From Xanthobacteraceae bacterium (GTDB taxonomy: Bacteria; Pseudomonadota; Alphaproteobacteria; Rhizobiales; Xanthobacteraceae): a stretch of 62,823 nucleotides of DNA. Made by a program: the position numbers and the translations under genes. The stretch lies in assembly GCA_035277225.1 (NCBI GenBank), contig DATEKY010000065.1, forward strand, positions 1 through 62,823, read 5' to 3'. The notes under the pieces were generated by a model. That model was given only the letters and a program-made list of their open reading frames with translations. It was not told where the DNA came from and did no database searches. Below are positions 549-17,090 of the stretch, in pieces; positions within the stretch are counted from its first letter, which is position 1; the number at the start of each line of letters is the position of its first letter.

Positions 549-578
549 GCCCGCACCTCCGCAAACCTTACGGACGTT

Positions 579-845: not shown

Positions 846-933
846 CACTCTGACTACGTGGTCGCAGGGCATCGAAAACCTCCCGCGCTGGTGTCGTCGG
901 AACTAGAATTGATCTAGCAGTACGAGCTTACGC

Positions 934-2310: not shown

Positions 2311-3609
2311 ATGCCCGCCGCCGACTTGTTGATAAAGCCGCAAAAGCCAACTTTCATTGACCTTTTTGCCGGCTGTGGCGGGTTCTCTCTCGGGTTCTGC
2401 CAGGCTGGATGGCAGGGCGTTTTCGCCATAGAGCGCGATGCATCTGCCTTCAAGACGTTTTCCAGTAACTTCCTCGATTCGAACTCCGAATACCCTTTCC
2501 TTTGGCCAGAGTGGCTGGAGAAAAAGAACGTCGACATACGACGGGCTCTCCGCGATCACCGCTCCGAACTGAGGAAGTTGCGTGGATCGATTGACGCGAT
2601 CATCGGAGGGCCACCGTGTCAAGGATTCTCGTTCGCTGGCCACCGCCGTCGCACGGATACGCGAAACCAGTTGTTCCGGGCTTACATCGACTTCGTCAAG
2701 GTCGTCCGTCCGCGCTTTGTTCTGATCGAGAACGTGCGGGGCATCTGCATCGAGCACGGGAAGAAGCAGCGACTTATTCGAAAGAATGGTCGGCCTGCGA
2801 TCCCATTCGCCCAGCGCATCGTTGATGCCTTGAAGGAGTTGGGCTATTGCACACGGGATCCCGAGTTAGTTCAGGCATCCGACTTCGGCGTACCGCAACG
2901 GCGCCCGCGCGTATTCTTTTTCGCGTATCGCAAGGACGCCGTGTCCGGCGTTGCGGAGCTGTTCAAGACTCTCTACGAATCGCGTCGGGGGTTTCTTCAG
3001 CAAAGGTCACTGCCGGTGAAGCGGCCCGTCCATGTCGAGGAGGCGATTTCCGACTTGATTCGCAAGCATGGGACCGTGAAGTGCGAAGACAAGTCATCGC
3101 CGAAAGGGTTTAGGCAGGGACTCTACGGTGCAAGGGAGTCCAAGTACCAGAGCCTCTTGAGAAACGGACACAGGCCGGGAATTCCCGCGCAGAGTCATCG
3201 TTTCGCCAATCACGAGGACGAAACCGAAAAGCGATTCAGGAAGATCCAGAAGGAATACCGCAAGGGCGTTCAACTTCACCAGCGCGATCGCGCGGAGTTG
3301 GATATCTCAAAGCACGTCGTCGTGCCTTTACGCGGCGACCAAATCGGCCACACGCTTACCACGCTACCGGACGATTACATTCATTACTGCGAGCCGAGAA
3401 TATTAACCGTGCGTGAGTATGCTCGCCTCCAAAGCTTCCCGGACGAATTCGTTTTCGACGGGCCATTCACAAGCGGAGGCGATCGTCGAAAGAAGACGTG
3501 TCCTCGTTATACCCAGATCGGCAATGCGGTTCCGCCTCTATTGGGCGAAGCGTTGGCCCTCGCCCTTCTCAAGATTCACGCTGCCGAAGATGCCGTACAA
3601 GCAGAATGA
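2311..3609 (+). CDS. DNA (cytosine-5)-methyltransferase
   Basis: C5-MTase motifs I, IV, VI, VIII, IX and X are all readable: FIDLFAGCGGFSLGF (I), GGPPCQGFS (IV), ENV (VI), QRRPRVFF (VIII), TVREYARLQSFPD (IX), GNAVPPLL (X). ATG at 2311; an alternative upstream start lies at 2233. Confidence 0.93.
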   Translation: MPAADLLIKPQKPTFIDLFAGCGGFSLGFCQAGWQGVFAIERDASAFKTFSSNFLDSNSEYPFLWPEWLEKKNVDIRRALRDHRSELRKLRGSIDAIIGGPPCQGFSFAGHRRRTDTRNQLFRAYIDFVKVVRPRFVLIENVRGICIEHGKKQRLIRKNGRPAIPFAQRIVDALKELGYCTRDPELVQASDFGVPQRRPRVFFFAYRKDAVSGVAELFKTLYESRRGFLQQRSLPVKRPVHVEEAISDLIRKHGTVKCEDKSSPKGFRQGLYGARESKYQSLLRNGHRPGIPAQSHRFANHEDETEKRFRKIQKEYRKGVQLHQRDRAELDISKHVVVPLRGDQIGHTLTTLPDDYIHYCEPRILTVREYARLQSFPDEFVFDGPFTSGGDRRKKTCPRYTQIGNAVPPLLGEALALALLKIHAAEDAVQAE

Positions 3610-5794
3610 GACTGTCGATCGCCTCCTGCTCCAGGCGTACGGTCAGAAGGCCGCGGTCGCCCTGCCCATTCCTCGCGCGGATGGTGCCGCAGTCGTTGGG
3701 AGGTTTCCTGCTGGCGTTAATAACACTCTCGACCATCTTGTAGATGCGTTCGTGGGCTGGCGCGAACGGCGAGAGGTCCATTGGTGCTTCCTGATCGGTG
3801 GACCAGGAAACGGTAAGTCGGAGGCATTGCGCATCCTCGCCGGCGCCCTCAACGTCACGCTGCCTGGCCGCGGAACCGGAGACCCCGCACCACGGACGGT
3901 ACCAAGTGAATGGCCCACATCGGCGCTCCCAGTGCACGATGGGCTCGAGATAGCTTTCATCAACGACGCGTCCATTCCTAGGCCGGATTGCCTGGGTCGC
4001 AACCTGCCCACATCGCTTTACAAGGATCTCGTGGACGGCCTCCAAAGGCTGGATCAGACGAACCCTGTCGTCTTGTTCGGCAACGTCAATCGCGGAATCT
4101 TGATCGAAGAGGTTGCAGCGAGTGAATCAGGGGTGAATGAGAATGATTCGTCGACTGGCGCCCTCGCTGTGCAAATCCTGGCTTGGCTGTCTCGCCCGGA
4201 CCAGCAACTCGATGCGGCTTCCGGACTCGCGGTGCCCTTCAAACCGACACGGTCGACAAAGTACTACTCACAAGCTGTCTTTAATGGCCAAACGAACAAG
4301 CTGGTCGTTCACGCCCTGTTTCTCGACACGCTCTCCCTTCTGGAGCCGTCCCCCGGCGGAACTAAAAGTATAGATTTCAGCAAGTCTCCTCCCGCCGTCG
4401 CGCCATACCACCCCATTGGAAGCGTCGATCCGACACAGGGCTCCAGGGAAGTGACTGTTGCCGGAGAGCGCACAGCGTTTTGGACGAGAGCCTCGTTGTG
4501 GAACGACGGCGGTTGCACGATCAACGGTCAGCAGTGCGCCGCCTACTCGGTATGTCCGTTTGCGGCTAACGCTCAGTGGCTACGCGCGCCGATACTGCGG
4601 GAACATTTCCTGTCCCTCATGCGCGGTGTCGAGGTCGCTGCTGGGAGACGCCTCTCCTACAGAGATCTTTTGGCCTACCTCTCTCTGGCCATCGTAGGGC
4701 CTCCCGAGGAAGCATGGCTGAACGGCCTCCATCCTTGTCGCTGGGTTGAGGATCGGCATCGCTTGGGTGACAGTCAGGCTCTCGCCGAATTGACGCACCG
4801 CCGCGTGTACGTGAACCTGTTTCCTAACCCGTCCTCGGATAGCTGGAAAAAGATCTCCCGGGGAGCGAAAACGGCACGAACCGTATATGGCTCGGTGCAG
4901 CGACGGTTCGTCGACGCCATCGAGCCAACGCTCAGTCCCTTTCATCGGAGCCTCGCGCGTCTCGATCCCGCAAGGGATGCAGATTCCTGGAACGAGCTCA
5001 GAACCAAGATTCTCGACATCTGTGACGCCGCCGACATTGAGCTGCCCGCCGTGCAGCTGCGAAACCTACCGGACCTGCCAGCCGCCGCGCATTCCGACGG
5101 TGAACAGGCCTTGGACCAGCTGGTGTCAGCGGAAATCGCAGGGGATCTAGCGAGTGGGAGCCGAATCGGGTCTGACCGGGTTCGCATCTTGCGCAAGTGG
5201 CGAGGCGTCCTATTGCTGCGCCAGGCGGGTCTCGCTACAGGGAACTTCACCTTTCGCAACACGATCAACGCGTGGCTCAGGGAGCACAGCGCGGCCTTGA
5301 GCGAGCTGCCTGGCGGAAGCCAGCTCCAAGTGGGCCTCACGAACCTGATACTCCCGCGCGTGGAATTAGGCGCCGCGCAACACTACATTCTTGTGCTGCC
5401 GCTTCGTCCACGGACGTATGCCCTAAGCGCATTGCCAGATCCATTCTCAGCATTCGTCGCGATCCCGCATGGCAACCTTCGCGTCCGCATGGTGGCTGAA
5501 AGCGACAGGCTGATCGCCGAAATCAGTGTCGTGGGTGCCACCGACGTGAAACGCATCGCAGATGTCGTTGTCGACTTCGCCATCGCGCGTGAAGGTCTCA
5601 TCCAGGCAACGGGTGACTTCACTGGATTCACCGAGATCGGGTACGGCGCCTTCGCACGGATCGAACGAGCCCGGGCCGCACTGGTCGGCAGGAAGCAGAC
5701 CGAGGATTTGTTGCTACACGTGGTCGGTTCAAGCGGTGATCACTTCCGCCTCGAACCCAATCCAACCGGAACTCCCGCGCTTCGAGCGATGTAG
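3590..5794 (+). CDS. P-loop NTPase of unknown family (DptF-like position and architecture)
   Basis: 734 aa from the ATG at 3590, which overlaps the methyltransferase 3' end by 20 nt. Walker A is FLIGGPGNGKSEAL (nt 3797-3820). A possible Walker B-like motif is LEIAFINDAS. The rest has no motif I recognise. Confidence 0.8.
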   Translation: MPYKQNETVDRLLLQAYGQKAAVALPIPRADGAAVVGRFPAGVNNTLDHLVDAFVGWRERREVHWCFLIGGPGNGKSEALRILAGALNVTLPGRGTGDPAPRTVPSEWPTSALPVHDGLEIAFINDASIPRPDCLGRNLPTSLYKDLVDGLQRLDQTNPVVLFGNVNRGILIEEVAASESGVNENDSSTGALAVQILAWLSRPDQQLDAASGLAVPFKPTRSTKYYSQAVFNGQTNKLVVHALFLDTLSLLEPSPGGTKSIDFSKSPPAVAPYHPIGSVDPTQGSREVTVAGERTAFWTRASLWNDGGCTINGQQCAAYSVCPFAANAQWLRAPILREHFLSLMRGVEVAAGRRLSYRDLLAYLSLAIVGPPEEAWLNGLHPCRWVEDRHRLGDSQALAELTHRRVYVNLFPNPSSDSWKKISRGAKTARTVYGSVQRRFVDAIEPTLSPFHRSLARLDPARDADSWNELRTKILDICDAADIELPAVQLRNLPDLPAAAHSDGEQALDQLVSAEIAGDLASGSRIGSDRVRILRKWRGVLLLRQAGLATGNFTFRNTINAWLREHSAALSELPGGSQLQVGLTNLILPRVELGAAQHYILVLPLRPRTYALSALPDPFSAFVAIPHGNLRVRMVAESDRLIAEISVVGATDVKRIADVVVDFAIAREGLIQATGDFTGFTEIGYGAFARIERARAALVGRKQTEDLLLHVVGSSGDHFRLEPNPTGTPALRAM

Positions 5795-5825
5795 GTAGCC
5801 CTTCATCGTCCGCACGAGCATTGAT

Positions 5826-7343
5826 ATGGCTGACAGTTGGTTAGAGGCGGCACTGCCGCTGGATAGGCCGGAGTACTCAAAGCAGACCGAAGCCCTGCTT
5901 ACGGACCTCCTATGGCGTTCAGAGGGTTCGACGCTCAGCGAAGTCGCGACGCAGCTCGCTGGTCTCGAGACAACCACAAAACAGAAGCTGGAAAGGGTCG
6001 TTTTCGAGAAGATCGGTAAGGCATCACCTGCAGTTCTGGAATCGATTCCTTTTGCTCGGGAAGCGGATATCAGTTCGATTGTTGCCGGACCGAGGGCCAA
6101 GGAGTGCCTGGCAGCCCTGCTCTTCGGCTTGAGAGCGCCTCGTTCAAGAGCGTACAAGTCCCTATCCGCAGTTCCTGTTCACCCGGAACTAGTGGCATTA
6201 CAGACGTTGCACGGGATCGTCAACAAAGAGAACCCAGCAAACCTCGCGAAGATCATTGAACGTTTCGGTCTGTTGGGCGGTTCGGATGGGGTTGGCGCTG
6301 TGGCTCGCCAGTTCCTTGCTGGCTTTGAAGCGCAACCAACGGCTCAACGCGGTCTGGCTGGTGCAGCCGGTGCCATCTACACGTCAATCTCCAGCGCGGT
6401 TTGGGAACAGCTGAGAACGCTAGCGGCAGCTTCCGGGAAGCCGTTGCCCGAGTGGCCAACCGTACGACCGAGACAGCACGAAGCCGCCGTTACTTTTCCC
6501 CACGTAGCCGCGCTGCCGCGCACGCCATTCAAGTGGTTCTGGGCCAAGTGGGTCATCCTCTGTGATCGCGAACGCGGCTGGCTGGATCACTTACCGGAAA
6601 GACGCTGGGTTGACTGGAGCCTTGCGCTGCTACGTGGTGCCTTGGCGTTTGGATATCTCTGGGAGGCGGAATGGTACGTGCGCATCTACGATCGGCTGGT
6701 TGAGCGACGACGAGGGTTAGAGCAAGGTCCCGAGAGGGAGAAACTCCTCGGCCTGCTCAACGGTCAGTTCACCCTCGCCGTGGTTCATCCTCGGCAGCTC
6801 GCGCCTTCGCAGAAGAGGATGTGGAGTGCACTTGCGGACAACGTTGCCAGGGGTTACGAAGTCAGGCGCCGATTGATCGCGTTCTTCGTGAACAATCCAA
6901 CGAACCAACCGCAGGATGGTGACCCGCGCACGACGGTTCCAGAATGGATCGACGCGCTGTCAATTGAAGATCTCGCGACGCTTGGGGACAGCCTGTCGAT
7001 CACAGCTTCGACAGCCACGAACACGAAGGAGTTCATCAGGTACTTGATGCTGCAACGATCCGCCGATGACGACTCCAGCGACCAAGCGGACCTTTACTAC
7101 TTGGCCCGCTCTCAGCAGTCGCATTTCTGGGTCGAGCTTGGCCCCGAATGGCTCGTCGTGGAGACGGCCCTGCTGGCCGGTCGCCCTGGGAAGAGCTGCA
7201 CCCTCAGGATGCTCATGGACGACTTGTCGTCGCTCGGTATCTTGATAGACCGATCGACGCTGGTCGGTTTGCTTGAGGATACGGGTTTGAGTGCGGATAG
7301 CCCGGATGCCGACGACGCCCTCGTCATCGAGTCCGGATTCTGA
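5826..7343 (+). CDS. Hypothetical protein (DptG-like position; no recognisable motif)
   Basis: 505-aa ORF lying 31 nt after the previous gene and 5 nt before the next. Its composition is protein-like. Confidence 0.8.
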   Translation: MADSWLEAALPLDRPEYSKQTEALLTDLLWRSEGSTLSEVATQLAGLETTTKQKLERVVFEKIGKASPAVLESIPFAREADISSIVAGPRAKECLAALLFGLRAPRSRAYKSLSAVPVHPELVALQTLHGIVNKENPANLAKIIERFGLLGGSDGVGAVARQFLAGFEAQPTAQRGLAGAAGAIYTSISSAVWEQLRTLAAASGKPLPEWPTVRPRQHEAAVTFPHVAALPRTPFKWFWAKWVILCDRERGWLDHLPERRWVDWSLALLRGALAFGYLWEAEWYVRIYDRLVERRRGLEQGPEREKLLGLLNGQFTLAVVHPRQLAPSQKRMWSALADNVARGYEVRRRLIAFFVNNPTNQPQDGDPRTTVPEWIDALSIEDLATLGDSLSITASTATNTKEFIRYLMLQRSADDDSSDQADLYYLARSQQSHFWVELGPEWLVVETALLAGRPGKSCTLRMLMDDLSSLGILIDRSTLVGLLEDTGLSADSPDADDALVIESGF

Positions 7344-7348
7344 CGACT

Positions 7349-10300
7349 ATGGGATTCCTGGGCAGCGCACTGGCGACTTACCTTGCTGAGTTCCGAGGCT
7401 TATATTCGGTCCAGCTCCCGCAAGCGCTGCGACCTGAGTTGGTCCGGCTCGTCGCGGACCTTAACAGCGTGACACCGAGGCGCGGGATCTACGTCAGTGA
7501 TCTCGACCTCCCGGGCGCGCCGCTCACGAGCCGCTGGGCCGAGGCATTGAGGTGGCGGACGGCGGACGATCGGATTTTTGTGTGGGAGCGCGGGGCGGGG
7601 GAGCCGGATTCATCCTTTCAGAGCGCCGTTCGCGATTTCATCGGTCCGCGGTTTCCAGTCGATGGGAGCATCTGTGACCTTGCGACGCTCGCGACGCTCG
7701 TGGTTCGGCACCTCTTTGCGTCGCGCGGCCTGAGCACTTCGGGGCCCTTCTTCGACGGCTTTGCTAACACGGCTGCCTGGGTTGCTGATGCCTATGCCTT
7801 GCTGTTCCGCGAGATCGGTTCGTCGACGGTTTCGCATTGGACCGATGGCTTCTTGGTCGAGTGGTCAGACTTCTGCGATCACCTTCCGCTCGTACTCGAC
7901 CGAGCGGTTGCCGAAGGGCTTCAACCTCGATTCGCCTGGGACATCGTTCGAGTCGCCGGCCTGGTCGTACCCCAGTTGGAAGCCGGAAGTCCGTTCGGGA
8001 ACTCGCCAGTCGACCACCTTCCTCACGAGAAGGCGCTCACGAAATACATCAAGACTTGGCAGCAAGTCGTTGGCAACTTTCTCGGTTCCAGCTCACATCG
8101 CGTCGTCCTTCTAAACGAGTTGGATCGTCGCGTTCAGGGTGCCGGAAGCCGGACGCCGTGGCGCGACCTTCCGTGGAACCAGCTCGATCAAGTCGCCGAC
8201 GGGTCGAGCGCAGCGGCCGTCGGCCGTCGAGTGTTTGCAGCGCCATCGTCGGTGTCCGTTATCGGCCCGCAGCCGCCGGTATATCCGGCTGCGCCTGACG
8301 GAACTTGGTGGGGTGTCACGGAGGAAGATCTGCAGGCGGCGATCGATGAGGTCAAAGAGGAGAGGCCGGTCGAACCGCTGCCATCGAGCCAGACAGTCAT
8401 ACAGCCGTTTCAATCGACGGACAATTACCTGCTTGCGACCCGCACCGGCAGTATCACCTTCCCGAGTACTGCTAAGAAATGGCGCTGCGCGATCCAGTGC
8501 CCCGAAGTTGAACTCCAGTATCGCGGTCGCTGGAAGTCCCTCTTTGTCGAGGAGGATGAGCCTGGAGGCGCCATTGATGGCGATGCTTGGATCCACCCCG
8601 GTGACATCGAGGTGAAGATATCTGGGAAAGGCGTGTCCGCAACGGTCGCGAACGCCGACAGTGTTGGCGGCCTGCTGAGGGTCACCTGCAACATCAAAGT
8701 TGAGTATTCGGGGGCCATTGACGCTACATCACAACGCGTCACGAGTGAGTGGGATCCCCACCGAAGCCTTGCGTTGATTCTGAAGATCTACAATCGTTCG
8801 GCAGACGGCTTCGCTGCTGCGCGGGAGGCACGCTCACAGATGGAACTCGTCGTTCCATCTTGCCTGGCTCCGACCATCGTCCTGAGGGCTGATGGCGACA
8901 CGGTCGTGTCGCCGACCGGAGATGATGAGTTCGTCCGCGAGCCAGGCGCCGAACAGGCCGCACCGTCAAGCACCCCCGAGATCAAACTGGCCGATGAAGA
9001 TGTGTATGACGTGTGCGTCTACGACGGCACCGTACGCGCCGGGATTGGTGCTTTCAACGATCCGAGTCCCGTAAGCGTAGGGGACGCCACGCTCGGCGTA
9101 GACCCCAACGTCATTGGCCTTGGCGTCGGCAGGCCCGCGCTTGCAGACGGAACAACACTTACGCGTCAAGCCAGCGGCCAACAAGACGAGCTGGCGGTCA
9201 TTCGCATCCTGGAAGAACAGCCGGCAGCTGTCTCTTCTGGCATCGTGGCCGTCCTCCAGGGGAAGCCCGCCGCACGGAGGCCGCCGAGCAACGCGGCCAC
9301 CGTCTCGATTCTCGGTCAGCATCAAACGCGTGTCGTTCGCGGAATCTGTTCCCAGCTCGGCGTCCTGCCGTTTGTTTCGTTGTTCCACACAGTTGTGGCA
9401 TCAGGGAGTTCTGTCGCCGTCTGGCCTGACCGACACCCGGCGACCAAGAGCCCCCTTTTCATCGGCCTTTCGCATGGCAGCCTCCCGGGAATCGGGAGTG
9501 GCCCAAGCACCATCTTCGGGACGCCAGAGTGGGCCGCTTTTGGCGACTCGCTCGAAGAAGTGTGCGCAGCCATCGGCCTGACACCGGAATCCCATGCTCT
9601 CTGGTTGTCAGGTTTCGACCCCTCGACCGTTCCGAGCACGGTGGTCCGTCGTTACAATCAGGCCCACGCGGCGCTGATCGATGCGGCGGAAGCGATTTCA
9701 CCAGCCGAGACGTTCTGGACCAGTTACCCGTTCTCCGTCGTTGTCGTAAACGGCCAACCAGGAAAGCACTTCGGCCAGCTTGAGGCAGTCCTGCTATCGC
9801 CGCTTCATCCTGTTCGTTTGACGTGGGCTCATTCGGTGGCAACGTTTGCGCGCCACATCGACGTGCGGGCGCCCGGCAGCCGAGAACTTCTCGGCTTGGC
9901 TGAGGGGTGGAACTTCCCGTTAGTCGGCCATGCGCCGAATGCTACCGGAGGGAAGCTTCAGCTCGTGGCGGTTCCGATCGATCCCGGGCCTGAACGAGAC
10001 TTCATCCAGTGGAGTGCTTTAGCTACCTTGGTACAAGGCCTCGTCGAAGTTCCGTCCGAGGCGACCGGGTTGCCGCTCCCCTGGGCCGGACGTTCCGGCA
10101 TCAACGACAAGGTCGTTCAGAGGTCGCTCGACGACTATCTAGCCGTTTCGCCGTATGTCGGCTCCCTTGTTGTCGATCTCCGCAGCGTTGCCCAAGCCCC
10201 GCGCTCTGCCGAGATCGACAACGCGGTCCTCGAGTTCTTGACCGACGCGTCGAATCCACTGGTTACAGCCCTGCCCGGCGGCGCGAGAGTGTGGGATTCA

Positions 10301-13192
10301 GCGTACAGGGAAGGACCGCCTCCGAGTAGAGACCGGCTCGCGACGTTCCGAGAGAAGAACCCCGATAGTGAAGTCGCGTTCGAGTGGAGATCGTACCAGC
10401 CGCCAGCTGTTCCCTCTCACTCGGATGTGGCGTTCGTCGAGAACGCCAGCGTCAGTCTCGATGTGGTGAATGGGACATCAGCCGGCTTCCTCGGTCCGCT
10501 CCCGCTGCGGCGCTTCTTGCCGGCCGATAACGCCCCCGGGCACATGGATCAGAACTTCAGGCCCAACGCAGATGAGGACGTACTTGGCTTGGCGTCTCTG
10601 CTTCGCAAGCTTGAGACGATCGGCAGCGATCTGGCCCTGCGATCCAGCCCAAGCCTCCAGACCCTTGGTATTGCACAAGGCGGCAAGTGGGAAGTGATCG
10701 GGACCCTCAACTTGTCGCCCCAGCTGCTGGCGTTGACGCTTGCAGGCACCACCAACAGCGCAGCCCGATTGCTTTGGGAGTGGCGGCCTTCTTGGCTGAA
10801 TCCTGAACGCCAGGCGGATGCCGACCTTGCCAGGCGTCCCTACTACGTGGTGGCGCGAATTCCCGCTTCGCTGAGCGTCGGTTTGGCATCGCGCCAAATG
10901 CTCTCCCAGGAGCGGATCAACCTCATGATTTCGGAACTAGGTCGACGTGCCGTCGGCCTGGCTACGTTATACGCCGCAGGCGACGCTCATGAGAATGCCG
11001 CCGCCGGCTTTTACGATGCCCTACAGCTTTTGCTGCCAGCGAATGTCACCACGCCTGCAGCGTGGATTCGACCCGCGCCATGGATCCAAACCATCGTACC
11101 GATTGACCCGCTAGCTGAGCTACTTGGAGCCCTCGGGGGGAAGAAGTTCCAGAGACGCGCGGATCTTTTGGCTGTCGGCTGTGTCCGCGACGGCATCGGC
11201 ACCCACGTCTGCCTGACACCCATCGAGGTCAAGCACCATGGGACACCAGCGAACCCGGCACCGCGGCCTCCCGATTCAGATCCAGAGCTGAAGCGCGCAC
11301 GGGACCAACTGAAACAGACGAACGAAGTCCTCGCATCGATACGTGACGCGTTGCCGGCGACCGAGGGCAACACGATGGTGGCGCTCGGACGCCGAAGCGG
11401 ACTTGCCGTTCTTATGGACTTCGCACTGGACTTCGCCGCGCACCCTGTTCCCGCTGAGCAGCGGGCGAAGATGATCGAAGACGTACTTGCGGGCAGATGC
11501 GCGATTTCCGTGGGTACGCCTTGCCTCTTGTGGCTCGCGCCCGGTTGCATGAGTCACACAGGTACTGCCGTCATTCGCAACCAGTTCGATGTCACGGCTG
11601 ACCTCCGAATCGAAGAGGCGTACGTCGATCCATACGCCGTACCGGGTCTTCTGTGGCCGGGCGAAGTCGCAGGCCCGAACGAACTGTTTGCCAGGACGCG
11701 CCTCGACGATATGATGACCGAGGCGACAAGCACATGCGGGCCAAGCAGCGTGGGCGGCTTCGACTTGCGGCCACCGTTGAAGACGCTCCTCAAGATCGAG
11801 GACGAGGAAGTGAAGCTGGAACCGGTCGTGGAAGGACCGGCGCCGGCTCCCGCCCCGGTGCCCGAGACCCCGCCGGTCATCCAACAAGCGCCACTGCCCC
11901 CGACTCCCGCGACGCCCGTTCAACCGCCCGCTCCGGTGTACTCGTCGACGCCTGTTCCTCCAACTCCGGCGGTGGTCGCATCCGGCGAACAGCCGCAGAT
12001 GGCCGCGCCGCAACTCGTCGTGGGTTCGCGCCAGCCTGGATCTCGCTGGACAGTTCTCGGCAAGCTGGCTACGGGATCACAAGAGCCTGTCGCGCTTGAC
12101 CTCGACCAACCGAAGGTGCTCGGGATCTTCGGCTACATGGGGTCCGGCAAGAGTTACCTTCTAGGAGCCGTAACGGAAGCGGCCGTCCAATCGATCGCGA
12201 ACCTCAACCAGCTCCGGGCACCATTGGCGGTCATCGTATTCAACTACCGCCGCAACGCCTCCGACAGGTTCGAGTTGTCCTCTCTGACGAATCCGAATGC
12301 AGATGCCGGGGATGTCAAGAGACTCGCGGACGAATTGAGCGCATTGCCTGCGGCTGTTCGCGACATGCACGTCTTGGCCTTGAAGGGTGAACTCAGACCA
12401 CACCGGCTGGCCGAGTATGGCACGACCACGGCGCAGGAGCTTCTATTCCGGCCCTCTACGCTTCACGTCGAGGACTGGGAGTTACTGATGGGCGAGCCAG
12501 ACGCCAACCGGCTGTACTCGCAGCTCATGCGCCATGCTTTGATCCAGCTGCGGGAACAGGGAGACGTGTCAGTCACGGGGCTCCGCACTCAGATCACCGC
12601 GTTCCCGAATCCAGGAAGCCGTAACGCAGCGAACCAGCGCCTGACCTTTGCGGAGAGGCATCTCTCTGAGTCGGCCGGGATCAACTTCAGCGAGGTTGTG
12701 CAACCGGGCCGCGTGCTCGTCATCGACCTGAGACAGCCGCTCTTCAGCAGAGATGATGCCCTACGGTTCTTCCTCGTGTGTGCGAATCAAATCAGCAGGG
12801 TCCAGGGGCAGTTCAACAAAATGGTGATTTTCGACGAAGCGCACGAGTACCTTTCCGAAGCATTCGGCGAGAAATTGGACAGCCGGATTCGGCTCAGCAG
12901 GCACGAAGGCACGTCGTACGTCTTTGCCACGCAGGACGTGGGTTCCATTCCGACAGAAATTCAGCGTTTCATTTCGACCAAGTTTGTCTTCGGTCTCGGT
13001 TCGAATCAAAACGCCAAGGACCTGCTCGAGTTCGCGCCCGAGTTCAAGGGGTTCGAACTGGTGGAGCTGCCGACAGGACAGTGCTTCGTGCAGTCAACAT
13101 ACTCGAGCAAGAATTTCTTTTCGCAGCCACGATTGATTCGCGTCCGTCCGCGGGCGTCTGCGCATGGTGGCGCTACCAGGATCTTCGCGTGA
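7349..13192 (+). CDS. Giant 1,947-aa protein with an unassigned N-terminal region, a PD-(D/E)xK-like motif, a Pro-rich linker and a C-terminal HerA/FtsK-like ATPase (DptH-like architecture)
   Basis: Single uninterrupted ORF. Motifs seen: ADLLAVG...VCLTPIEVKH (nt about 11160-11243); Pro/Ala/Thr-rich linker (nt about 11820-11990); Walker A GYMGSGKSYLLG (12131-12154); Walker B MVIFDEAHEYL (12821-12850); then RHEGTSYVFATQDVGSIP, typical of HerA/DUF87-type ATPases. Confidence 0.9.
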   Translation: MGFLGSALATYLAEFRGLYSVQLPQALRPELVRLVADLNSVTPRRGIYVSDLDLPGAPLTSRWAEALRWRTADDRIFVWERGAGEPDSSFQSAVRDFIGPRFPVDGSICDLATLATLVVRHLFASRGLSTSGPFFDGFANTAAWVADAYALLFREIGSSTVSHWTDGFLVEWSDFCDHLPLVLDRAVAEGLQPRFAWDIVRVAGLVVPQLEAGSPFGNSPVDHLPHEKALTKYIKTWQQVVGNFLGSSSHRVVLLNELDRRVQGAGSRTPWRDLPWNQLDQVADGSSAAAVGRRVFAAPSSVSVIGPQPPVYPAAPDGTWWGVTEEDLQAAIDEVKEERPVEPLPSSQTVIQPFQSTDNYLLATRTGSITFPSTAKKWRCAIQCPEVELQYRGRWKSLFVEEDEPGGAIDGDAWIHPGDIEVKISGKGVSATVANADSVGGLLRVTCNIKVEYSGAIDATSQRVTSEWDPHRSLALILKIYNRSADGFAAAREARSQMELVVPSCLAPTIVLRADGDTVVSPTGDDEFVREPGAEQAAPSSTPEIKLADEDVYDVCVYDGTVRAGIGAFNDPSPVSVGDATLGVDPNVIGLGVGRPALADGTTLTRQASGQQDELAVIRILEEQPAAVSSGIVAVLQGKPAARRPPSNAATVSILGQHQTRVVRGICSQLGVLPFVSLFHTVVASGSSVAVWPDRHPATKSPLFIGLSHGSLPGIGSGPSTIFGTPEWAAFGDSLEEVCAAIGLTPESHALWLSGFDPSTVPSTVVRRYNQAHAALIDAAEAISPAETFWTSYPFSVVVVNGQPGKHFGQLEAVLLSPLHPVRLTWAHSVATFARHIDVRAPGSRELLGLAEGWNFPLVGHAPNATGGKLQLVAVPIDPGPERDFIQWSALATLVQGLVEVPSEATGLPLPWAGRSGINDKVVQRSLDDYLAVSPYVGSLVVDLRSVAQAPRSAEIDNAVLEFLTDASNPLVTALPGGARVWDSAYREGPPPSRDRLATFREKNPDSEVAFEWRSYQPPAVPSHSDVAFVENASVSLDVVNGTSAGFLGPLPLRRFLPADNAPGHMDQNFRPNADEDVLGLASLLRKLETIGSDLALRSSPSLQTLGIAQGGKWEVIGTLNLSPQLLALTLAGTTNSAARLLWEWRPSWLNPERQADADLARRPYYVVARIPASLSVGLASRQMLSQERINLMISELGRRAVGLATLYAAGDAHENAAAGFYDALQLLLPANVTTPAAWIRPAPWIQTIVPIDPLAELLGALGGKKFQRRADLLAVGCVRDGIGTHVCLTPIEVKHHGTPANPAPRPPDSDPELKRARDQLKQTNEVLASIRDALPATEGNTMVALGRRSGLAVLMDFALDFAAHPVPAEQRAKMIEDVLAGRCAISVGTPCLLWLAPGCMSHTGTAVIRNQFDVTADLRIEEAYVDPYAVPGLLWPGEVAGPNELFARTRLDDMMTEATSTCGPSSVGGFDLRPPLKTLLKIEDEEVKLEPVVEGPAPAPAPVPETPPVIQQAPLPPTPATPVQPPAPVYSSTPVPPTPAVVASGEQPQMAAPQLVVGSRQPGSRWTVLGKLATGSQEPVALDLDQPKVLGIFGYMGSGKSYLLGAVTEAAVQSIANLNQLRAPLAVIVFNYRRNASDRFELSSLTNPNADAGDVKRLADELSALPAAVRDMHVLALKGELRPHRLAEYGTTTAQELLFRPSTLHVEDWELLMGEPDANRLYSQLMRHALIQLREQGDVSVTGLRTQITAFPNPGSRNAANQRLTFAERHLSESAGINFSEVVQPGRVLVIDLRQPLFSRDDALRFFLVCANQISRVQGQFNKMVIFDEAHEYLSEAFGEKLDSRIRLSRHEGTSYVFATQDVGSIPTEIQRFISTKFVFGLGSNQNAKDLLEFAPEFKGFELVELPTGQCFVQSTYSSKNFFSQPRLIRVRPRASAHGGATRIFA

Positions 13193-13974
13193 CGATCGCT
13201 CGCGTGAGTCGAAGAGTCGGAAACACCAAGGCCGCACACGGTGACCGGCGGCTTCCACGCAGTGAGTCCTGCCACAGCGTGCGACGTCGTTTGCTTGCTT
13301 GGCTTGAGGGTCATGGCCGAAGCTTCGCTTGGCGTCGGCCGTCAGCTTCGTTGTATCGGCTTGTTGTCACCGAGGCGCTGCTCCAACGAACTAGGGCTGA
13401 AACGGTTAACAATTTCTACGCGCCCTTCTTTCGGCGTTTTCCATCTTGGCAGGCTTTGGCACAGGTTTCTGAAGCCGAATTGCAGGATTACCTGCGGCCG
13501 ATCGGATTGTGGAAGCGCCGGTCGGCCAGTTTGCGGAGCCTCGCGATCGAAATGGCCAAGCGACGTGGGCGCTTCCCTTCGGCCAGAGAAGAGATCGAGG
13601 CCTTACCTGGTGTGGGCCAGTACGTCGCGAATGCGGTCCTGCTGTTTGCGCATGGACGCAGTGAGCCGCTGCTTGACGCCAACGTTGCGAGAGTCTTGGA
13701 GCGCCACTTTGGACCGCGACGCCTTGCCGACATCCGCTACGACCCATACCTTCAAAAGTTGGCAAGAATGGTCGTCTCGTCCGAGCGCCCAGCAAAAGTC
13801 AATTGGGCTCTTTTGGATTTGGCGGCGTTGATCTGCCGCATCCGGGCGCCTCTGTGTCAAGAGTGCCCGCTGTCCGCGACCTGCCACGATTACACTCGTC
13901 GGCGGAACAACGCGGACGATGTTACCGAGGCCAAGTGCGGTCGCAGAACCGCTAGCATCACACGAGCAGTCTGA
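13189..13974 (+). CDS. HhH-GPD DNA glycosylase with a 4Fe-4S cluster, MutY/Mig-like
   Basis: Motifs seen: LVVTEALLQRTRAETV; HhH LPGVGQYVANAVLLFA; catalytic-Asp motif LLDANVARVLERHFG; Cys-X6-Cys-X2-Cys-X5-Cys (CRIRAPLCQECPLSATC). The GTG at 13189 overlaps the TGA of the giant gene (GTGA). Confidence 0.85.
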   Translation: MTIARVSRRVGNTKAAHGDRRLPRSESCHSVRRRLLAWLEGHGRSFAWRRPSASLYRLVVTEALLQRTRAETVNNFYAPFFRRFPSWQALAQVSEAELQDYLRPIGLWKRRSASLRSLAIEMAKRRGRFPSAREEIEALPGVGQYVANAVLLFAHGRSEPLLDANVARVLERHFGPRRLADIRYDPYLQKLARMVVSSERPAKVNWALLDLAALICRIRAPLCQECPLSATCHDYTRRRNNADDVTEAKCGRRTASITRAV

Positions 13975-14086: not shown

Positions 14087-15883
14087 GTGGCGCGATTGGC
14101 GGGTTTTCCTGAAGACACATTCCTCGCAATGACCCGCATTCGCGACACTTCTCTAGTGCGCTTTGATAGCCTCTTTACGCCCGACCGCCACCTCTGGGCT
14201 GCCCAGAACCTGAAACGCTTTCATGCCTTGTTCGTCGAGCGCTTCGACGAGGGCGAGGGCTCGTTCTTGGAGAAGTTTCGTAAGCAGCTCGATGGAGCCG
14301 ACGACGATGTCTACCAGCTCGCCGCGGAGTTGCTTTACGTTCAGCAGTTCTTCACGAGCTTGACCGGGCCCGATAAGAAGATCGAGAACGTGCAAGCCGT
14401 TCTCGGCTGGTGTACACATCCCGTCCAAGTCCCAGAATGGGCGATCTCTGGCGTCAAGCGCGGCCTCGCTGGAGATCAAAGTTTCAATCAGCACCGTCCC
14501 TTCCATCTGGCGTGGCTGAACGAGTTCCTGATTCACTGGCATGAGACGCCAAGCGAGAAGAGGAGCGACCTCCTTAAGGACCCGTGGCTCTTCGCTCAGC
14601 ATGAACGAGGCGTCGAGTTCTCAGGTGGAGCTTACCAGCCGATGCGCGAGGCTTGGCTCTACATCATCTTCCCAGAGCATTTCGAGAACATCTCCTCCCG
14701 GCGGGACAAGAAGCTCATTCGGGAGGCATTCAAAACACGACTCGAACACGGCGCCACCGACAACATCGACGCGGACCTGCTGGCGATCCGAAAGAGCTTC
14801 AGTCCCCAGGAGGGCGAGGGGTTCCACTTCTATCGCTCGCCGTTTATCGAGCAGTGGCAAACGGAGCGGAAGAAGACAAAGAGCAATGACGGTGGCACGG
14901 TTAGCAAGTTGAAAGGCGAGTTGCCAGTTGTCGAGCGCCCACAGAGCCCTGTGTCTCTGGCGACGACGTCGATCGATCAACTGAGTGCTCTCGGCGCCGA
15001 CCTCTTTCTCGATCCGCCGGCGGTACTCGGTGAGTGGGCCGCTCTTATCCTCGATGCTCGACAGTTGATCTTCCAGGGGCCACCTGGGACCGGAAAAACG
15101 TTCATCGCGCGTAAGCTCGCCGATGCAATCGCCGGTCACCGAGATCGAGTTGAGCTCGTGCAGTTTCACCCGTCGTACGCATACGAGGATTTCGTCGAAG
15201 GGTACCGACCTGTCGGCGCTGGTTCCTTCGCGTTGCAGCCCGGACCGATTAAACGCCTAGCCGCCAGGGCGACAGCCGCGCCCGATCACCGCTTCGTCTT
15301 GGTCATTGACGAGATCAACCGGGGCAACCTGGCGAAGGTCTTTGGCGAGCTGTACTACCTTCTCGAGTATCGCGACGACGCCATCACGCTGCAGTACTCC
15401 CAGGAGCCCTTTCGCCTTCCGCCGAATGTCCACATCGTCGGTACCATGAACACCGCCGACCGTTCGATCGCTTTGCTCGACATGGCCTTGCGACGGCGCT
15501 TCCGGTTTGTCGACCTCCTGCCGGACAGTCCGCCGCTTAAGGGATTGTTGAGAAGGTTTCTCGACCGAAAGGCGCCGGACATGGCGTTCCTCGCGGACAT
15601 GCTCGACGATGTCAATCGACAATTGAACGATCCGCACGCATCAGTAGGGCCAAGTCACTTCTTGCTCAAAGACACTCGGACACTGACGGAAGACAAGGCT
15701 GAACTCATTTGGAACCACTCGATTCTGCCTGCACTTGGTGACCGCTTCTTCGATTCGCCCGAGGAGTTGAAAAGGTTTCAGTACCAGACCGTACGCGGGC
15801 GAACGTCGCTTGGCGATTTGGTGACTCCGTCACCCTCCGAAGAACCCGAGGACGACGAGCGTGCGTCGACTGACGCTAACTGA
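14087..15883 (+). CDS. mcrB: McrB-like AAA+ GTPase subunit of a modification-dependent restriction system
   Basis: Motifs seen: LIFQGPPGTGKTF, VLVIDEINRGNLAKVFGELYYLLEYR, IVGTMNTADRSIALLDMALRRRFRF. GTG start is preceded by AGGAGG (14074-14079). The roughly 320-aa N-terminal domain is not recognisable. Confidence 0.9.
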   Translation: MARLAGFPEDTFLAMTRIRDTSLVRFDSLFTPDRHLWAAQNLKRFHALFVERFDEGEGSFLEKFRKQLDGADDDVYQLAAELLYVQQFFTSLTGPDKKIENVQAVLGWCTHPVQVPEWAISGVKRGLAGDQSFNQHRPFHLAWLNEFLIHWHETPSEKRSDLLKDPWLFAQHERGVEFSGGAYQPMREAWLYIIFPEHFENISSRRDKKLIREAFKTRLEHGATDNIDADLLAIRKSFSPQEGEGFHFYRSPFIEQWQTERKKTKSNDGGTVSKLKGELPVVERPQSPVSLATTSIDQLSALGADLFLDPPAVLGEWAALILDARQLIFQGPPGTGKTFIARKLADAIAGHRDRVELVQFHPSYAYEDFVEGYRPVGAGSFALQPGPIKRLAARATAAPDHRFVLVIDEINRGNLAKVFGELYYLLEYRDDAITLQYSQEPFRLPPNVHIVGTMNTADRSIALLDMALRRRFRFVDLLPDSPPLKGLLRRFLDRKAPDMAFLADMLDDVNRQLNDPHASVGPSHFLLKDTRTLTEDKAELIWNHSILPALGDRFFDSPEELKRFQYQTVRGRTSLGDLVTPSPSEEPEDDERASTDAN

Positions 15884-17090
15884 GTTCAGAACGGAGCCGG
15901 CAGTTCCCTTGTCTGTTGAGGAGAGGGATGGTATTCGGCGGCTCCATCCAGGCATTCGCATCGAGCCCACCGTTGGATTCGACGGCCGATACGACCTGAC
16001 GCCCGACCAGCGAATCGGCCTGGTCTGTCTCCCGACAGTGGTGGTTGAGATCCGGCCCAAGGTGCCGATGTCCTCGGTACTGCTTTTGGTTTCCTACGCC
16101 TGCGACGCCGCATCGTGGGTCGACCATCAGCCAGAGTTCTCGCGCGATTTGGACTTGGTGGAGATGATCTCGATCATGCTGGCCAAGATGGTCCAGCATG
16201 CGACACGGCGGGGACTTCTCAACGGCTATCAGTGCGAAGACGAGCCGCTGCAGGCGCCGCGTGGCCGGATCCTGTTCGACGAACAGATTCGGCGAAGGCT
16301 GGGACACGCACCACCGATTGAGGTTCGCCATGACATCTTCACGGCGGACATTCTTGAGAATCGGCTGCTACAAGCCGCGCTTGCGACGGTGAGCCGGATT
16401 CCTCTTCGATCGGTGGTGACACGCCGTGAATTGGCTCGCGCTCAAAGGCTTTTCGGCTCAGTCAAACGCCTCCGCTTCTTGCCGGCCGCTGTCCCCGACG
16501 TTGTCTTTACGCGACTAAATCGTCACTATCAGCCGGCGATTGCGCTGGCGACCTTCGTGCTTCGGTCTGCGTCTCTTGAACTCGGCGCTGGTGGTACGCA
16601 AGGGTCGGCGTTTCTGATTGACATGAATGCCGTTTTCGAGCGTTTCCTCCGAACCGCGCTTCGAGAGGCACTGGATGTCGACCCGAGTTCATTCCCCGAG
16701 CGTCCTCCACGGACCAGCCTCGACGTCGCCGGCGTGGTGCCGCTCAAGCCGGATCTCTGTCTGCTGGATCGGCGTGCAATCGTCTGGGTCGGCGATGCCA
16801 AGTACAAACGTCTTCCAATGGGCGGATACCGCAACGCGGATCTGTATCAACTCCTGGCCTACAGCATTGCCCTAAACCTTCCCGGAGGAACACTTGTCTA
16901 TGCCGCGGACGAAGGCGTGACGGCAGCTGAACACACCGTCGTCGAAAGCGGCAAGCAGCTGAGAGTCGTTGCCCTCGATCTGACCGCGCCCAGATCGAAC
17001 ATCCTCCTGCAGATCCGCTCCCTAGCTGCGTCTATTCGTCCTCGACGCGCTGAACCCGAAGTGATCGGCCAGCGGCGTGGAGTGGCGTAG
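15861..17090 (+). CDS. mcrC: McrC-like nuclease subunit
   Basis: 409 aa, overlapping mcrB by 23 nt. C-terminal PD-(D/E)xK-type motif PDLCLLD...IVWVGDAKYKR. Confidence 0.85.
   Translation: MRRLTLTEFRTEPAVPLSVEERDGIRRLHPGIRIEPTVGFDGRYDLTPDQRIGLVCLPTVVVEIRPKVPMSSVLLLVSYACDAASWVDHQPEFSRDLDLVEMISIMLAKMVQHATRRGLLNGYQCEDEPLQAPRGRILFDEQIRRRLGHAPPIEVRHDIFTADILENRLLQAALATVSRIPLRSVVTRRELARAQRLFGSVKRLRFLPAAVPDVVFTRLNRHYQPAIALATFVLRSASLELGAGGTQGSAFLIDMNAVFERFLRTALREALDVDPSSFPERPPRTSLDVAGVVPLKPDLCLLDRRAIVWVGDAKYKRLPMGGYRNADLYQLLAYSIALNLPGGTLVYAADEGVTAAEHTVVESGKQLRVVALDLTAPRSNILLQIRSLAASIRPRRAEPEVIGQRRGVA

What the first reader, a model, noticed from the sequence alone, without database searches (positions are those of the whole stretch)
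13189..13974. Iron-sulfur MutY/Mig-type glycosylase translationally coupled to the defence operon: a Vsr-like safeguard for 5mC deamination?
Seen: the glycosylase GTG overlaps the giant gene's TGA (GTGA). The protein has the LQRTRAETV helix, an HhH motif, the D-x-N-V-x-R-V catalytic Asp motif and the C-X6-C-X2-C-X5-C cluster. It lacks the EndoIII-type lysine context, so it looks monofunctional.

Established: 5mC deaminates to T and creates T:G mismatches. E. coli couples dcm with vsr, and the Methanothermobacter plasmid pFV1 couples the M.MthTI cytosine methylase with the Mig.MthI T:G thymine glycosylase of this same superfamily.

Inference: this gene is probably a Mig-like repair partner for the methyltransferase. 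Alternatively it could be an effector that excises a modified or foreign base. Its position at the 3' end of the effector genes, rather than next to the MTase, is notable.
Basis: partly seen in the sequence, partly recalled or inferred. Interest (0 to 1): 0.65.

Follow-up and report, generated by a model that had tools for sequence, protein, structure and literature searches.

The report
Mismatch-repair glycosylase riding a cytosine-methylase defence operon
The last gene of this five-gene cytosine-methylation defence operon encodes a small iron-sulfur DNA glycosylase that most likely repairs the T:G mismatches left when methylated cytosines decay; this is a known kind of safeguard, found here in an uncharacterised enzyme clade and an undescribed operon.

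Summary
A 261-aa ORF (13189-13974) starts at a GTG that overlaps the TGA of the 1,947-aa gene.

- **What it is.** A catalytic-domain-only member of the MutY/Mig branch of the HhH-GPD [4Fe-4S] glycosylases. It is not a canonical MutY: it has no NUDIX domain, it scores below the MutY cut-off, and the genome has its own MutY. It is not EndoIII either, because Tyr replaces the lysine nucleophile.
- **Specificity residues.** At the two positions that set adenine specificity in MutY (Val45, Gln182) it has Ala70 and Trp206. Mig.MthI has Ala and Leu there.
- **Phylogeny.** It falls in a well-supported clade of its own. Whether that clade is closer to Mig.MthI or to MutY is unresolved.
- **Gene context.** Members of the clade sit with a C5 cytosine methylase in 14 of 15 lineages I could judge. 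They span four unrelated architectures: this methylase/DndFGH-like operon, DISARM, MvaI/BcnI-type type II R-M, and a GHKL-ATPase cassette.
- **Conservation.** The glycosylase is 50-60% identical across operon subtypes whose other proteins share only 17-20%.

My best reading (about 0.75) is a Mig/Vsr-like T:G repair partner of the methylase. Substrate specificity is inferred, not shown. This is a new member of a known kind, of moderate interest.

The parts
2311..3609 (+). C5 cytosine DNA methyltransferase (432 aa as called on identical metagenome copies). It is the presumed source of the 5mC whose deamination the glycosylase repairs.
   Evidence: Pfam DNA_methylase 1.8e-57 and TIGR00675 dcm 3.4e-49.
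3590..5794 (+). Protein A, 734 aa, with the P-loop GGPGNGKS. Its start lies 20 nt inside the methylase gene.
   Evidence: No Pfam, PADLOC or NCBIfam hit. The counterpart in operon subtype 2 (L015) hits PADLOC SspF at 1.7e-9 and DndF at 0.005.
5826..7343 (+). Protein B, 505 aa, with no recognisable domain. It holds the conserved middle position of the operon.
   Evidence: Homologues are aligned.
7349..13192 (+). Giant protein, 1,947 aa, with a C-terminal HerA/FtsK-type ATPase. Its TGA overlaps the glycosylase start.
   Evidence: PADLOC mad8 5.2e-19 over residues 1568-1943, and HerA 0.0027. DndH scores only 0.11 here, but the subtype-2 counterpart scores 2e-23.
13178..13181 (+). AGGA, a Shine-Dalgarno-like site 7 nt upstream of the glycosylase GTG. 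It lies inside the end of the giant gene.
   Evidence: Read directly from the sequence.
13189..13974 (+). HhH-GPD [4Fe-4S] DNA glycosylase, 261 aa. It is a catalytic domain only and belongs to the MutY/Mig branch.
13372..13374 (+). Glu62, aligned with MutY Glu37 (E. coli) / Glu43 (G. stearothermophilus) and Mig.MthI Glu42.
   Evidence: Alignment. Invariant in the family.
13396..13398 (+). Ala70, aligned with Mig.MthI Ala50. Canonical MutY has Val45 here.
   Evidence: Alignment. Invariant in the family. The role of this position is taken from PMC2714593.
13570..13647 (+). Helix-hairpin-helix, residues 128-153. It includes Tyr145 (13621-13623) at the position of the EndoIII Lys120 nucleophile.
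   Evidence: Pfam HHH 1.9e-6. Alignment.
13675..13677 (+). Asp163, the catalytic aspartate of the HhH-GPD motif (LDANVARV).
13804..13806 (+). Trp206, aligned with Mig.MthI Leu187. MutY has Gln182 or Glu188 here.
13834..13884 (+). The [4Fe-4S] cluster loop, C216-x6-C223-x2-C226-x5-C232.
14087..17090 (+). McrB-like (14087-15883) and McrC-like (15861-17090) genes. They are a same-strand neighbour, not shown to be part of the operon.
   Evidence: Pfam AAA_5 7.4e-22 and McrBC 1.3e-54. They are absent after the glycosylase in other loci.

Best explanation
The gene encodes a monofunctional, iron-sulfur, helix-hairpin-helix DNA glycosylase. It acts as the repair partner of the operon's C5 cytosine methylase.

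Proposed mechanism:
1. The methylase marks host DNA with 5-methylcytosine.
2. Spontaneous deamination of 5mC yields thymine, leaving a T:G mismatch that uracil glycosylase cannot see.
3. The glycosylase flips out the mismatched T (probably also U) opposite G and cuts the N-glycosidic bond with Asp163, assisted by Glu62.
4. It has Tyr145 where EndoIII has its lysine nucleophile, so it leaves an intact abasic site.
5. Host AP endonuclease, polymerase and ligase restore C:G, and the methylase re-marks the site.

Translational coupling to the preceding gene keeps the repair function expressed with the methylation-based defence system and inherited with it during horizontal transfer.

Shown here: the fold, the catalytic and cluster residues, the lack of a NUDIX domain and of the lysine, the separate clade, and the gene linkage. 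Inferred: the substrate (T:G or U:G) and the downstream repair steps.
For: 1. Family. HhH-GPD 2e-15. It is about equally close to the MutY catalytic core (1e-31) and to Mig.MthI 1kea (1.5e-29), and far from EndoIII (1e-13). The best Foldseek match of a pLDDT-90.7 model is 1KEA, the thymine-DNA glycosylase. A PADLOC model named 'Type II nicking endonuclease', 221 positions long, matches end to end at 1.9e-31.

2. Not MutY. TIGR01084 scores 155.8 bits against a cut-off of 286.5. There is no C-terminal domain. There is no GLGYY motif; PIGLWKRR stands in its place. Ala70 and Trp206 occupy the positions where MutY has the adenine-specificity pair Val45/Gln182 and Mig.MthI has Ala50/Leu187 (PMC2714593). 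The genome has its own MutY with the C-terminal domain.

3. Phylogeny. The window protein and 24 relatives form one clade (100/99). It is separate from the MutY clade (100/99) and from Nth (100/100).

4. Context. The common denominator across architectures is a C5 methylase:
- The five-gene operon in the window, L015, L016, L018 and L043-46.
- DISARM, with DrmA and DrmB, in L017.
- Methylase plus MvaI/BcnI endonuclease in L019-22.
- Methylase plus glycosylase beside a GHKL ATPase in L070.
- In L018 the methylase has moved, yet it lies directly next to the glycosylase.
- In a sample anchored on protein B, so independent of the glycosylase, 7 of 8 loci that reach past the giant gene have the glycosylase immediately after it. 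The exception carries an IS3-type transposase at that spot.

5. More distant short Mig-type genes lie within about 2.5 kb of a C5 methylase on 7 of 9 plasmids, from Thermus, haloarchaea and Caldicellulosiruptor. None of 5 MutY-clade loci has one.

6. Evolutionary rate. The glycosylase is 50-60% identical and the methylase 43-56% identical across operon subtypes whose A, B and giant proteins share 17-20%. This is the pattern expected of a housekeeping-type enzyme attached to fast-evolving defence proteins.

7. No Vsr homologue in this genome. Twelve relatives of the genome have only Nth plus one weaker second hit, at MutY-like score, so the gene arrived with the island.
Against: - No biochemical data exist for any member of this clade.
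- Its placement relative to Mig.MthI is unresolved. In the best tree it sits on the MutY side with weak support (76/87), and holding it together with the Mig-type sequences is equally likely (AU p 0.52).
- Trp206 is neither the Leu of Mig nor the Gln of MutY, so the pocket may accept something other than thymine.
- In E. coli MutY the V45A/Q182L swaps did not create T:G activity, so these two residues do not determine specificity on their own.
- The gene's near-obligatory presence at the 3' end of the restriction-type genes would also fit an integral role in defence.
- One relative (L014) shows no methylase within 10 kb upstream. That contig ends 0.56 kb downstream.
- The genome is only 79% complete, so the absence of Vsr is weak evidence.
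Confidence: 0.75

Rival explanations
1. The glycosylase is a working part of the restriction mechanism: an effector or sensor of the DndFGH-like module. For example, it might make abasic sites in unmethylated or foreign DNA for the giant nuclease/ATPase to process, by analogy with restriction glycosylases.
For: It is the near-universal last gene of the operon and is translationally coupled to the giant gene. It sits at the effector end rather than beside the methylase. Restriction by base excision has precedent in R.PabI (PMC4357717, listed).
Against: The same clade also sits beside complete type II R-M pairs that have their own endonuclease, and in DISARM and GHKL cassettes. Only the methylase is shared by all of these. 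The glycosylase evolves about three times more slowly than A, B and the giant, unlike proteins engaged with invaders. An HhH glycosylase acting on normal unmethylated sites would need sequence specificity, for which there is no extra domain.
Confidence: 0.1
2. It repairs a different lesion linked to cytosine methylation rather than T:G. Candidates are U:G only, 5-hydroxymethyluracil, 5-formyluracil, or another oxidised or deaminated 5mC product.
For: Trp206 differs from Mig's Leu187. A family-specific invariant motif (GPRxLADIRYDPYLQ, residues 175-189) has no counterpart in MutY or Mig. The methylase linkage would fit equally well.
Against: T:G is the main and best-documented product of 5mC decay, and it is the substrate of the only characterised methylase-linked enzyme of this superfamily (Mig.MthI; abstract). 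Nothing in the sequence points to an oxidised substrate.
Confidence: 0.1
3. It is a truncated MutY-type adenine glycosylase acting on A:G or A:8-oxoG, and happens by chance to sit in a defence island.
For: The best sequence matches in the PDB are MutY catalytic cores. The strongest NCBIfam hit is mutY. Sources annotate its relatives as 'A/G-specific adenine glycosylase'. In the best tree the clade falls on the MutY side with 76/87 support.
Against: It scores below the mutY cut-off. It lacks the C-terminal domain that reads 8-oxoG. It lacks Val45, Gln182 and the GLGYY motif. The genome already has a canonical MutY. The methylase linkage seen across four architectures is absent from canonical MutY loci.
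Confidence: 0.05

Closest known systems
Mig.MthI, the T/G mismatch thymine-DNA glycosylase (PDB 1KEA) encoded with the m5C methylase M.MthTI on Methanothermobacter plasmid pFV1
   Same: Same superfamily and fold; it is the best Foldseek match (E 7.7e-13, TM 0.83 over the whole of 1KEA). Both are a catalytic domain only, with a [4Fe-4S] loop. Both have Glu, Asp, Tyr at the Lys120 position, and Ala at the A50 position. Both are genetically linked to a C5 cytosine methylase.
   Different: About 30% identity. The window protein belongs to a separate, well-supported clade whose sister relationship to Mig.MthI is neither shown nor rejected. It has Trp206 instead of Leu187, and a family-specific GPRxLADIRYDPYLQ motif. 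It is attached to a DndFGH-like operon rather than a simple type II R-M system. True Mig.MthI orthologues exist elsewhere, for example on a Caldicellulosiruptor plasmid (2e-53 to 1kea).
Dcm-Vsr of Escherichia coli (very-short-patch repair endonuclease overlapping the dcm gene)
   Same: Same logic: a T:G repair activity translationally coupled to a 5mC-writing gene set and inherited with it.
   Different: Vsr is an unrelated endonuclease that nicks 5' of the T. The enzyme here is a base-excision glycosylase. No Vsr homologue was found in this genome. The glycosylase is coupled to the last restriction-type gene, not to the methylase.
MutY (A/G-specific adenine glycosylase)
   Same: The closest catalytic-core sequence matches (1e-31). 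Shared Glu/Asp catalytic pair, HhH motif and Fe-S loop.
   Different: No NUDIX-like C-terminal domain. Below the TIGR01084 cut-off. Ala70/Trp206 instead of Val/Gln. No GLGYY motif. A separate clade. A different gene context.
DndFGH / SspFGH restriction modules (context of the gene)
   Same: Three genes in the same order: a P-loop protein, a middle protein, and a protein of about 1,800-2,000 aa with a C-terminal HerA/FtsK-type ATPase. The subtype-2 giant hits DndH at 2e-23, and its A protein hits SspF at 1.7e-9.
   Different: Paired here with a C5 methylase and a glycosylase instead of phosphorothioation genes. The window's own proteins are too diverged to hit the DndF/G/H models (DndH 0.11). 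I found no glycosylase mentioned with DndFGH in PMC10853773.

Membership tests
HhH-GPD / [4Fe-4S] glycosylase superfamily (Nth/MutY/Mig) | HhH-GPD domain scoring above the curated cut-off | tested here: met
   PF00730 at 57.5 bits against a cut-off of 26.2. PF00633 at 27.8 bits against 24.
HhH-GPD / [4Fe-4S] glycosylase superfamily (Nth/MutY/Mig) | Catalytic Asp after the HhH motif, and a C-x6-C-x2-C-x5-C cluster loop | tested here: met
   D163 and C216/C223/C226/C232, all invariant in 40 sequences.
HhH-GPD / [4Fe-4S] glycosylase superfamily (Nth/MutY/Mig) | The fold | tested here: met
   The AF2 model has pLDDT 90.7. Foldseek hits are 1KEA, MutY and EndoIII at E 1e-8 to 1e-13.
Canonical MutY | Scores above the TIGR01084 equivalog cut-off | tested here: not met
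   155.8 bits against a cut-off of 286.5.
Canonical MutY | C-terminal NUDIX-like 8-oxoG-recognition domain | tested here: not met
   The protein ends 29 residues after the cluster loop. The genome's own MutY (L011) continues for about 140 more residues.
Canonical MutY | The Val45/Gln182 adenine-specificity pair (E. coli numbering) | tested here: not met
   Ala70 and Trp206 occupy these positions. Their role is taken from PMC2714593.
Canonical MutY | Falls inside the MutY clade | tested here: not met
   The two clades are separate, each with 100/99 support. A sister relationship is not excluded (76/87).
Endonuclease III (Nth) | Lys120 Schiff-base nucleophile in the HhH motif | tested here: not met
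   Tyr145 occupies that position. TIGR01083 scores 72 bits against a cut-off of 211.7.
Mig.MthI-type T:G mismatch glycosylase | Catalytic domain only, about 220-260 aa, with Fe-S loop, Glu/Asp pair and Tyr at the Lys120 position | tested here: met
Mig.MthI-type T:G mismatch glycosylase | Ala50/Leu187-type pocket | tested here: inconclusive
   Ala70 matches. Position 206 is Trp, which is hydrophobic like Leu but bulkier. One methylase-linked Thermus Mig-type protein also has Trp there.
Mig.MthI-type T:G mismatch glycosylase | Gene linkage to a C5 cytosine methylase | tested here: met
   14 of 15 judgeable lineages of the clade.
Mig.MthI-type T:G mismatch glycosylase | Monophyly with Mig.MthI | tested here: inconclusive
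   The tree shows a polytomy. The constrained tree is equally likely, AU p 0.52.
Mig.MthI-type T:G mismatch glycosylase | Excision of T (and U) opposite G | not testable with these tools
   This needs an enzyme assay.
Vsr endonuclease | Vsr domain (PF03852) | tested here: not met
   The fold is different. No PF03852 match anywhere in the genome, which is 79% complete. This is a functional analogy only.
R.PabI-type restriction glycosylase | The R.PabI-family fold, which as far as I know is not HhH-GPD | tested here: not met
   The top 50 Foldseek matches shown are HhH-GPD enzymes: 1KEA, MutY, EndoIII. That R.PabI has a different fold is from my own knowledge.

The most novel reading that the evidence does not exclude
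The glycosylase is not merely a repair add-on. It is a functional component of an undescribed m5C-keyed, DndFGH-like immune system. For example, it might convert lesions or unmethylated target sites in incoming DNA into abasic sites that load or license the giant nuclease/ATPase. Alternatively, its Fe-S cluster might sense DNA damage signals for the complex.
Probability: 0.08. Interest if true: 0.8.

Novelty: new member of a known kind. Interest (0 to 1): 0.4.

Why it matters
Pairing a 5mC methylase with a T:G repair activity is an established principle, seen in Dcm-Vsr and M.MthTI-Mig.MthI. The gene's likely role is therefore not surprising.

Three things are worth recording.

- **An uncharacterised clade.** This is a distinct, widespread clade with no member characterised in the library I searched. 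It has 1,276 database hits at E <= 0.001. Members are about 55-60% identical across Acidobacteriota, Planctomycetota and Pseudomonadota. Public sources label its members 'A/G-specific adenine glycosylase', which is probably wrong.
- **A marker for methylation-based defence.** The clade marks methylation-based defence cassettes of several kinds. It is the almost invariable fifth gene of a methylase/DndFGH-like operon that I could not find described.
- **A usable contrast in evolutionary rate.** Across operon subtypes the glycosylase stays 50-60% identical, against 17-20% for its partners. This separates the 'self-maintenance' module (methylase plus glycosylase) from the 'restriction' module.

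An assay of one member would fix the annotation of a large family. A knock-out would show whether the operon needs it for defence.

Tried and rejected
- **Canonical MutY:** rejected on cut-off score, missing C-terminal domain, specificity residues, clade and context.
- **EndoIII-type bifunctional enzyme:** rejected. There is no Lys at the 120 position, and it scores far below the nth cut-off.
- **Assigning the clade to Mig.MthI by phylogeny:** failed. The deep branching among this clade, MutY and the Mig-type sequences is a polytomy, and the AU test does not discriminate.
- **Looking for replacement of the glycosylase by Vsr in the same operon:** not found. The only operon without the glycosylase (L048) has an IS3-type transposase in its place. 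L069, which looked like a methylase-less remnant from the gene calls, turned out to be a frameshifted full operon whose methylase is cut by a Mu-like transposase.
- **Metagenome scan with a nine-sequence alignment of protein B:** A four-sequence subtype alignment worked, so the B-anchored census covers subtype 2 only.
- **PADLOC at a loose threshold on the window's own A, B and giant proteins:** no DndF/G/H assignment (DndH 0.11). Only the subtype-2 relatives hit DndH and SspF.
- **Phage collection:** no close relative; the best match is 38% identity, in an Aeropyrum virus.
- **Literature searches for this clade or the five-gene operon:** nothing specific found. The library lacks most subscription journals.
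- **Promoter and terminator scans:** no more sites than in shuffled sequence.

Full report
**The observation**

The ORF at 13189-13974 on the plus strand is real. Its GTG (13189-13191) overlaps the TGA (13190-13192) of the 1,947-aa ORF 7349-13192. An AGGA at 13178-13181 lies 7 nt upstream of the GTG. Homologues conserve sequence from about residue 20 onwards, so only this GTG or the one at 13204 can be the start. Gene calls on six identical metagenome copies use 13189.

The product contains the following features:
- LLQRTRAETV at residues 64-73, with Glu62.
- A helix-hairpin-helix at 128-153.
- LPGVGQY, with Tyr145.
- L-D163-ANVARV.
- C216-x6-C223-x2-C226-x5-C232.

The supporting scores are these:
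- Pfam HhH-GPD, 2e-15.
- PDB, MutY cores 1e-31, Mig.MthI (1kea) 1.5e-29 and EndoIII 1e-13.
- An AlphaFold2 model built on a 40-sequence alignment has mean pLDDT 90.7. Its best Foldseek match is 1KEA, the thermostable thymine-DNA glycosylase (E 7.7e-13, TM 0.83 over all of 1KEA), followed by MutY catalytic domains.

**What it is not**

It is not a canonical MutY.
- The mutY equivalog model gives 155.8 bits against a cut-off of 286.5.
- The protein stops 29 residues after the cluster loop, so it lacks the NUDIX-like domain.
- The MutY GLGYY motif is replaced by PIGLWKRR.
- The two positions described as key determinants of adenine specificity are Val45 and Gln182 in E. coli MutY, and Ala50 and Leu187 in Mig.MthI (PMC2714593). 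Here they are Ala70 and Trp206.
- The same genome has a separate MutY with the C-terminal domain, on another contig (L011).

It is not EndoIII. Tyr145 stands where the Lys120 nucleophile would be, and the nth model scores 72 bits against 211.7.

**Phylogeny**

I built a maximum-likelihood tree of 46 sequences:
- the window protein and 24 relatives;
- Mig.MthI and seven short methylase-linked plasmid proteins;
- six MutY sequences, including the genome's own;
- five Nth sequences;
- two others.

The window protein and all 24 relatives form one clade (100/99). That clade is distinct from the MutY clade (100/99) and from Nth (100/100). The order of branching among this clade, MutY and the Mig-type sequences is unresolved. 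In the best tree the clade is on the MutY side at 76/87. Forcing it together with the Mig-type sequences costs nothing (AU p 0.52).

So the protein belongs to the MutY/Mig branch, in a clade of its own. I do not file it as an orthologue of Mig.MthI. True orthologues exist elsewhere, for example the Caldicellulosiruptor plasmid protein at 2e-53 to 1kea.

**Gene context**

This is the main evidence for function. The window operon runs as follows:

| Gene | Coordinates | Notes |
|---|---|---|
| C5 methylase | 2311-3609 | |
| Protein A | 3590-5794 | P-loop |
| Protein B | 5826-7343 | |
| Giant protein | 7349-13192 | HerA/FtsK-type ATPase tail |
| Glycosylase | 13189-13974 | |

Relatives of the glycosylase at 50-72% identity occur in these settings:
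- **The same five-gene order.** L015 (Arenicellales), L016 (Phycisphaeraceae), and L043-L046.
- **Contigs cut inside the operon.** L007, L008, L010 and L071 all show the giant gene before the glycosylase.
- **Rearranged copy.** In L018 (Phycisphaerales) the methylase has moved, yet it lies convergent and directly next to the glycosylase.
- **Three unrelated architectures.**
  - DISARM in Methylohalomonas: methylase, NERD helicase, DrmA at 9.5e-190, DrmB at 2.2e-87, then the glycosylase (L017).
  - A type II pair of C5 methylase and MvaI/BcnI-family endonuclease followed by the glycosylase, in four Rhodobacterales (L019-L022).
  - A methylase-glycosylase pair beside a GHKL ATPase (L070).

Counting lineages whose context can be judged, 14 of 15 have a C5 methylase in the cluster. 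The exception, L014, has none within 10 kb upstream, and its contig ends 0.56 kb downstream.

A sample anchored on protein B does not select for the glycosylase. It gave eight loci that extend past the giant gene. Seven have the glycosylase immediately after it. The eighth has an IS3-type transposase there.

More distant short Mig-type genes lie within about 2.5 kb of a C5 methylase on 7 of 9 plasmids examined, from Thermus, haloarchaea and Caldicellulosiruptor. The Rhodobacterales plasmid L022 is counted with the clade above. Five loci of the MutY clade have no methylase nearby: E. coli, B. thuringiensis, Legionella, Azospirillum, and a 307-aa Thermomicrobium protein. The only partner shared by all of these settings is the C5 methylase.

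**Evolutionary rates**

The operon exists in at least three subtypes. Identities across them compare as follows:

| Protein | Identity across subtypes |
|---|---|
| A, B and giant proteins | 17-20% |
| Glycosylase | 50-60% |
| Methylase | 43-56% |

This fits a conserved 'modification plus repair' pair attached to a fast-evolving restriction-type trio.

The trio is DndFGH/SspFGH-like in subtype 2: the giant hits DndH at 2e-23, and A hits SspF at 1.7e-9 and DndF at 0.005. The window's own proteins do not reach those models; the giant hits mad8 at 5.2e-19 and DndH only at 0.11.

**Genome background**

- No Vsr domain is found in the genome, which is 79% complete.
- Twelve related genomes have only Nth plus one weaker second hit, at MutY-like score, and no third such glycosylase.
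- The island has slightly lower G+C than its flanks.
- It borders VirB3/TrbC conjugation genes.

The gene therefore arrived with a mobile defence island.

**Interpretation**

This is a Mig/Vsr-like safeguard that removes T, and probably U, from the T:G mismatches made by deamination of the operon's own 5mC marks. It would leave an abasic site for host base-excision repair.

Rivals:
- An integral role in restriction (about 0.1). This is weakened by the gene's presence beside complete R-M pairs and by its slow evolution.
- Repair of a different 5mC-derived lesion (about 0.1). Trp206 and the family-specific GPRxLADIRYDPYLQ motif leave room for this.
- A MutY-type adenine glycosylase (about 0.05).

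Substrate specificity is inferred throughout. PMC2714593 also shows that the two pocket residues alone do not confer T:G activity on MutY.

**Novelty**

The principle is known, so I rate this a new member of a known kind.

Worth noting are the uncharacterised and probably mis-annotated clade (sources call members 'A/G-specific adenine glycosylase') and its fixed place in a methylase/DndFGH-like operon. I did not find that operon described in the searchable literature.

Earlier notes of this scan on other genomes describe the same operon and reach the same reading. They are leads from similar agents, not independent evidence. I reached the reading before consulting them.

Noticed in passing
window 14087-17090 (+); L010 9187-10041; L071 925-1755: A McrB/McrC pair follows the glycosylase after 112 nt on the same strand, with no terminator-like site between them. 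In L010 and L071 an SRA plus HNH nuclease (SRA being a 5mC-reading domain) sits between the giant gene and the glycosylase. Nucleases that depend on modified cytosine thus repeatedly ride with an operon that writes 5mC. How self-restriction is avoided is unexplained.
   Followed up: partly
window 3590-13192 against L010, L015, L016, L018, L043-L046: The A, B and giant proteins fall into at least three subtypes with only 17-20% identity between them. The flanking methylase (43-56%) and glycosylase (50-60%) stay conserved. Only subtype 2 reaches the PADLOC DndH and SspF/DndF models.
   Followed up: partly
window 13711-13755 (residues 175-189): A family-specific motif, GPRxLADIRYDPYLQ, has invariant R177, D181, R183, D185, L188 and Q189. 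It has no counterpart in MutY, Mig.MthI or Nth. Model confidence dips here (pLDDT 81-89). Its role is unknown.
   Followed up: no
L048 12363-12629; L069 1-10747: Two decayed copies of the operon. In L048 an IS3-type transposase ORF replaces the glycosylase. In L069 the operon is frameshifted throughout, and the methylase is cut next to a Mu-like transposase; this could also be long-read assembly error.
   Followed up: partly
window 252-872 (-): VirB3/TrbD-like and TrbC-pilin genes lie at the left edge of the window, so the defence island borders conjugative-transfer genes. The island's G+C is 58-60%, against 62-64% in the flanks.
   Followed up: partly
L023 about 3990-4640 (Thermus thermophilus plasmid pTthSNM7-6d): An unannotated Mig-type glycosylase reading frame begins at the end of the annotated cytosine methylase gene and is followed by an IS1634 transposase. 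On Thermus sp. PS18 plasmid (L032) the equivalent gene overlaps the methylase gene by 29 nt.
   Followed up: no
L070 5287-10690: A methylase-glycosylase pair sits next to a divergent 797-aa GHKL (HATPase_c_3, MORC-like) ATPase. This is a fourth type of methylation-linked cassette carrying this glycosylase clade.
   Followed up: no
window 17117-19004: A 257-aa ORF with no family match, and a convergent REase-ARP / PD-(D/E)xK nuclease gene (17979-19004, minus strand), close the island before lgt and the copper-resistance genes.
   Followed up: no
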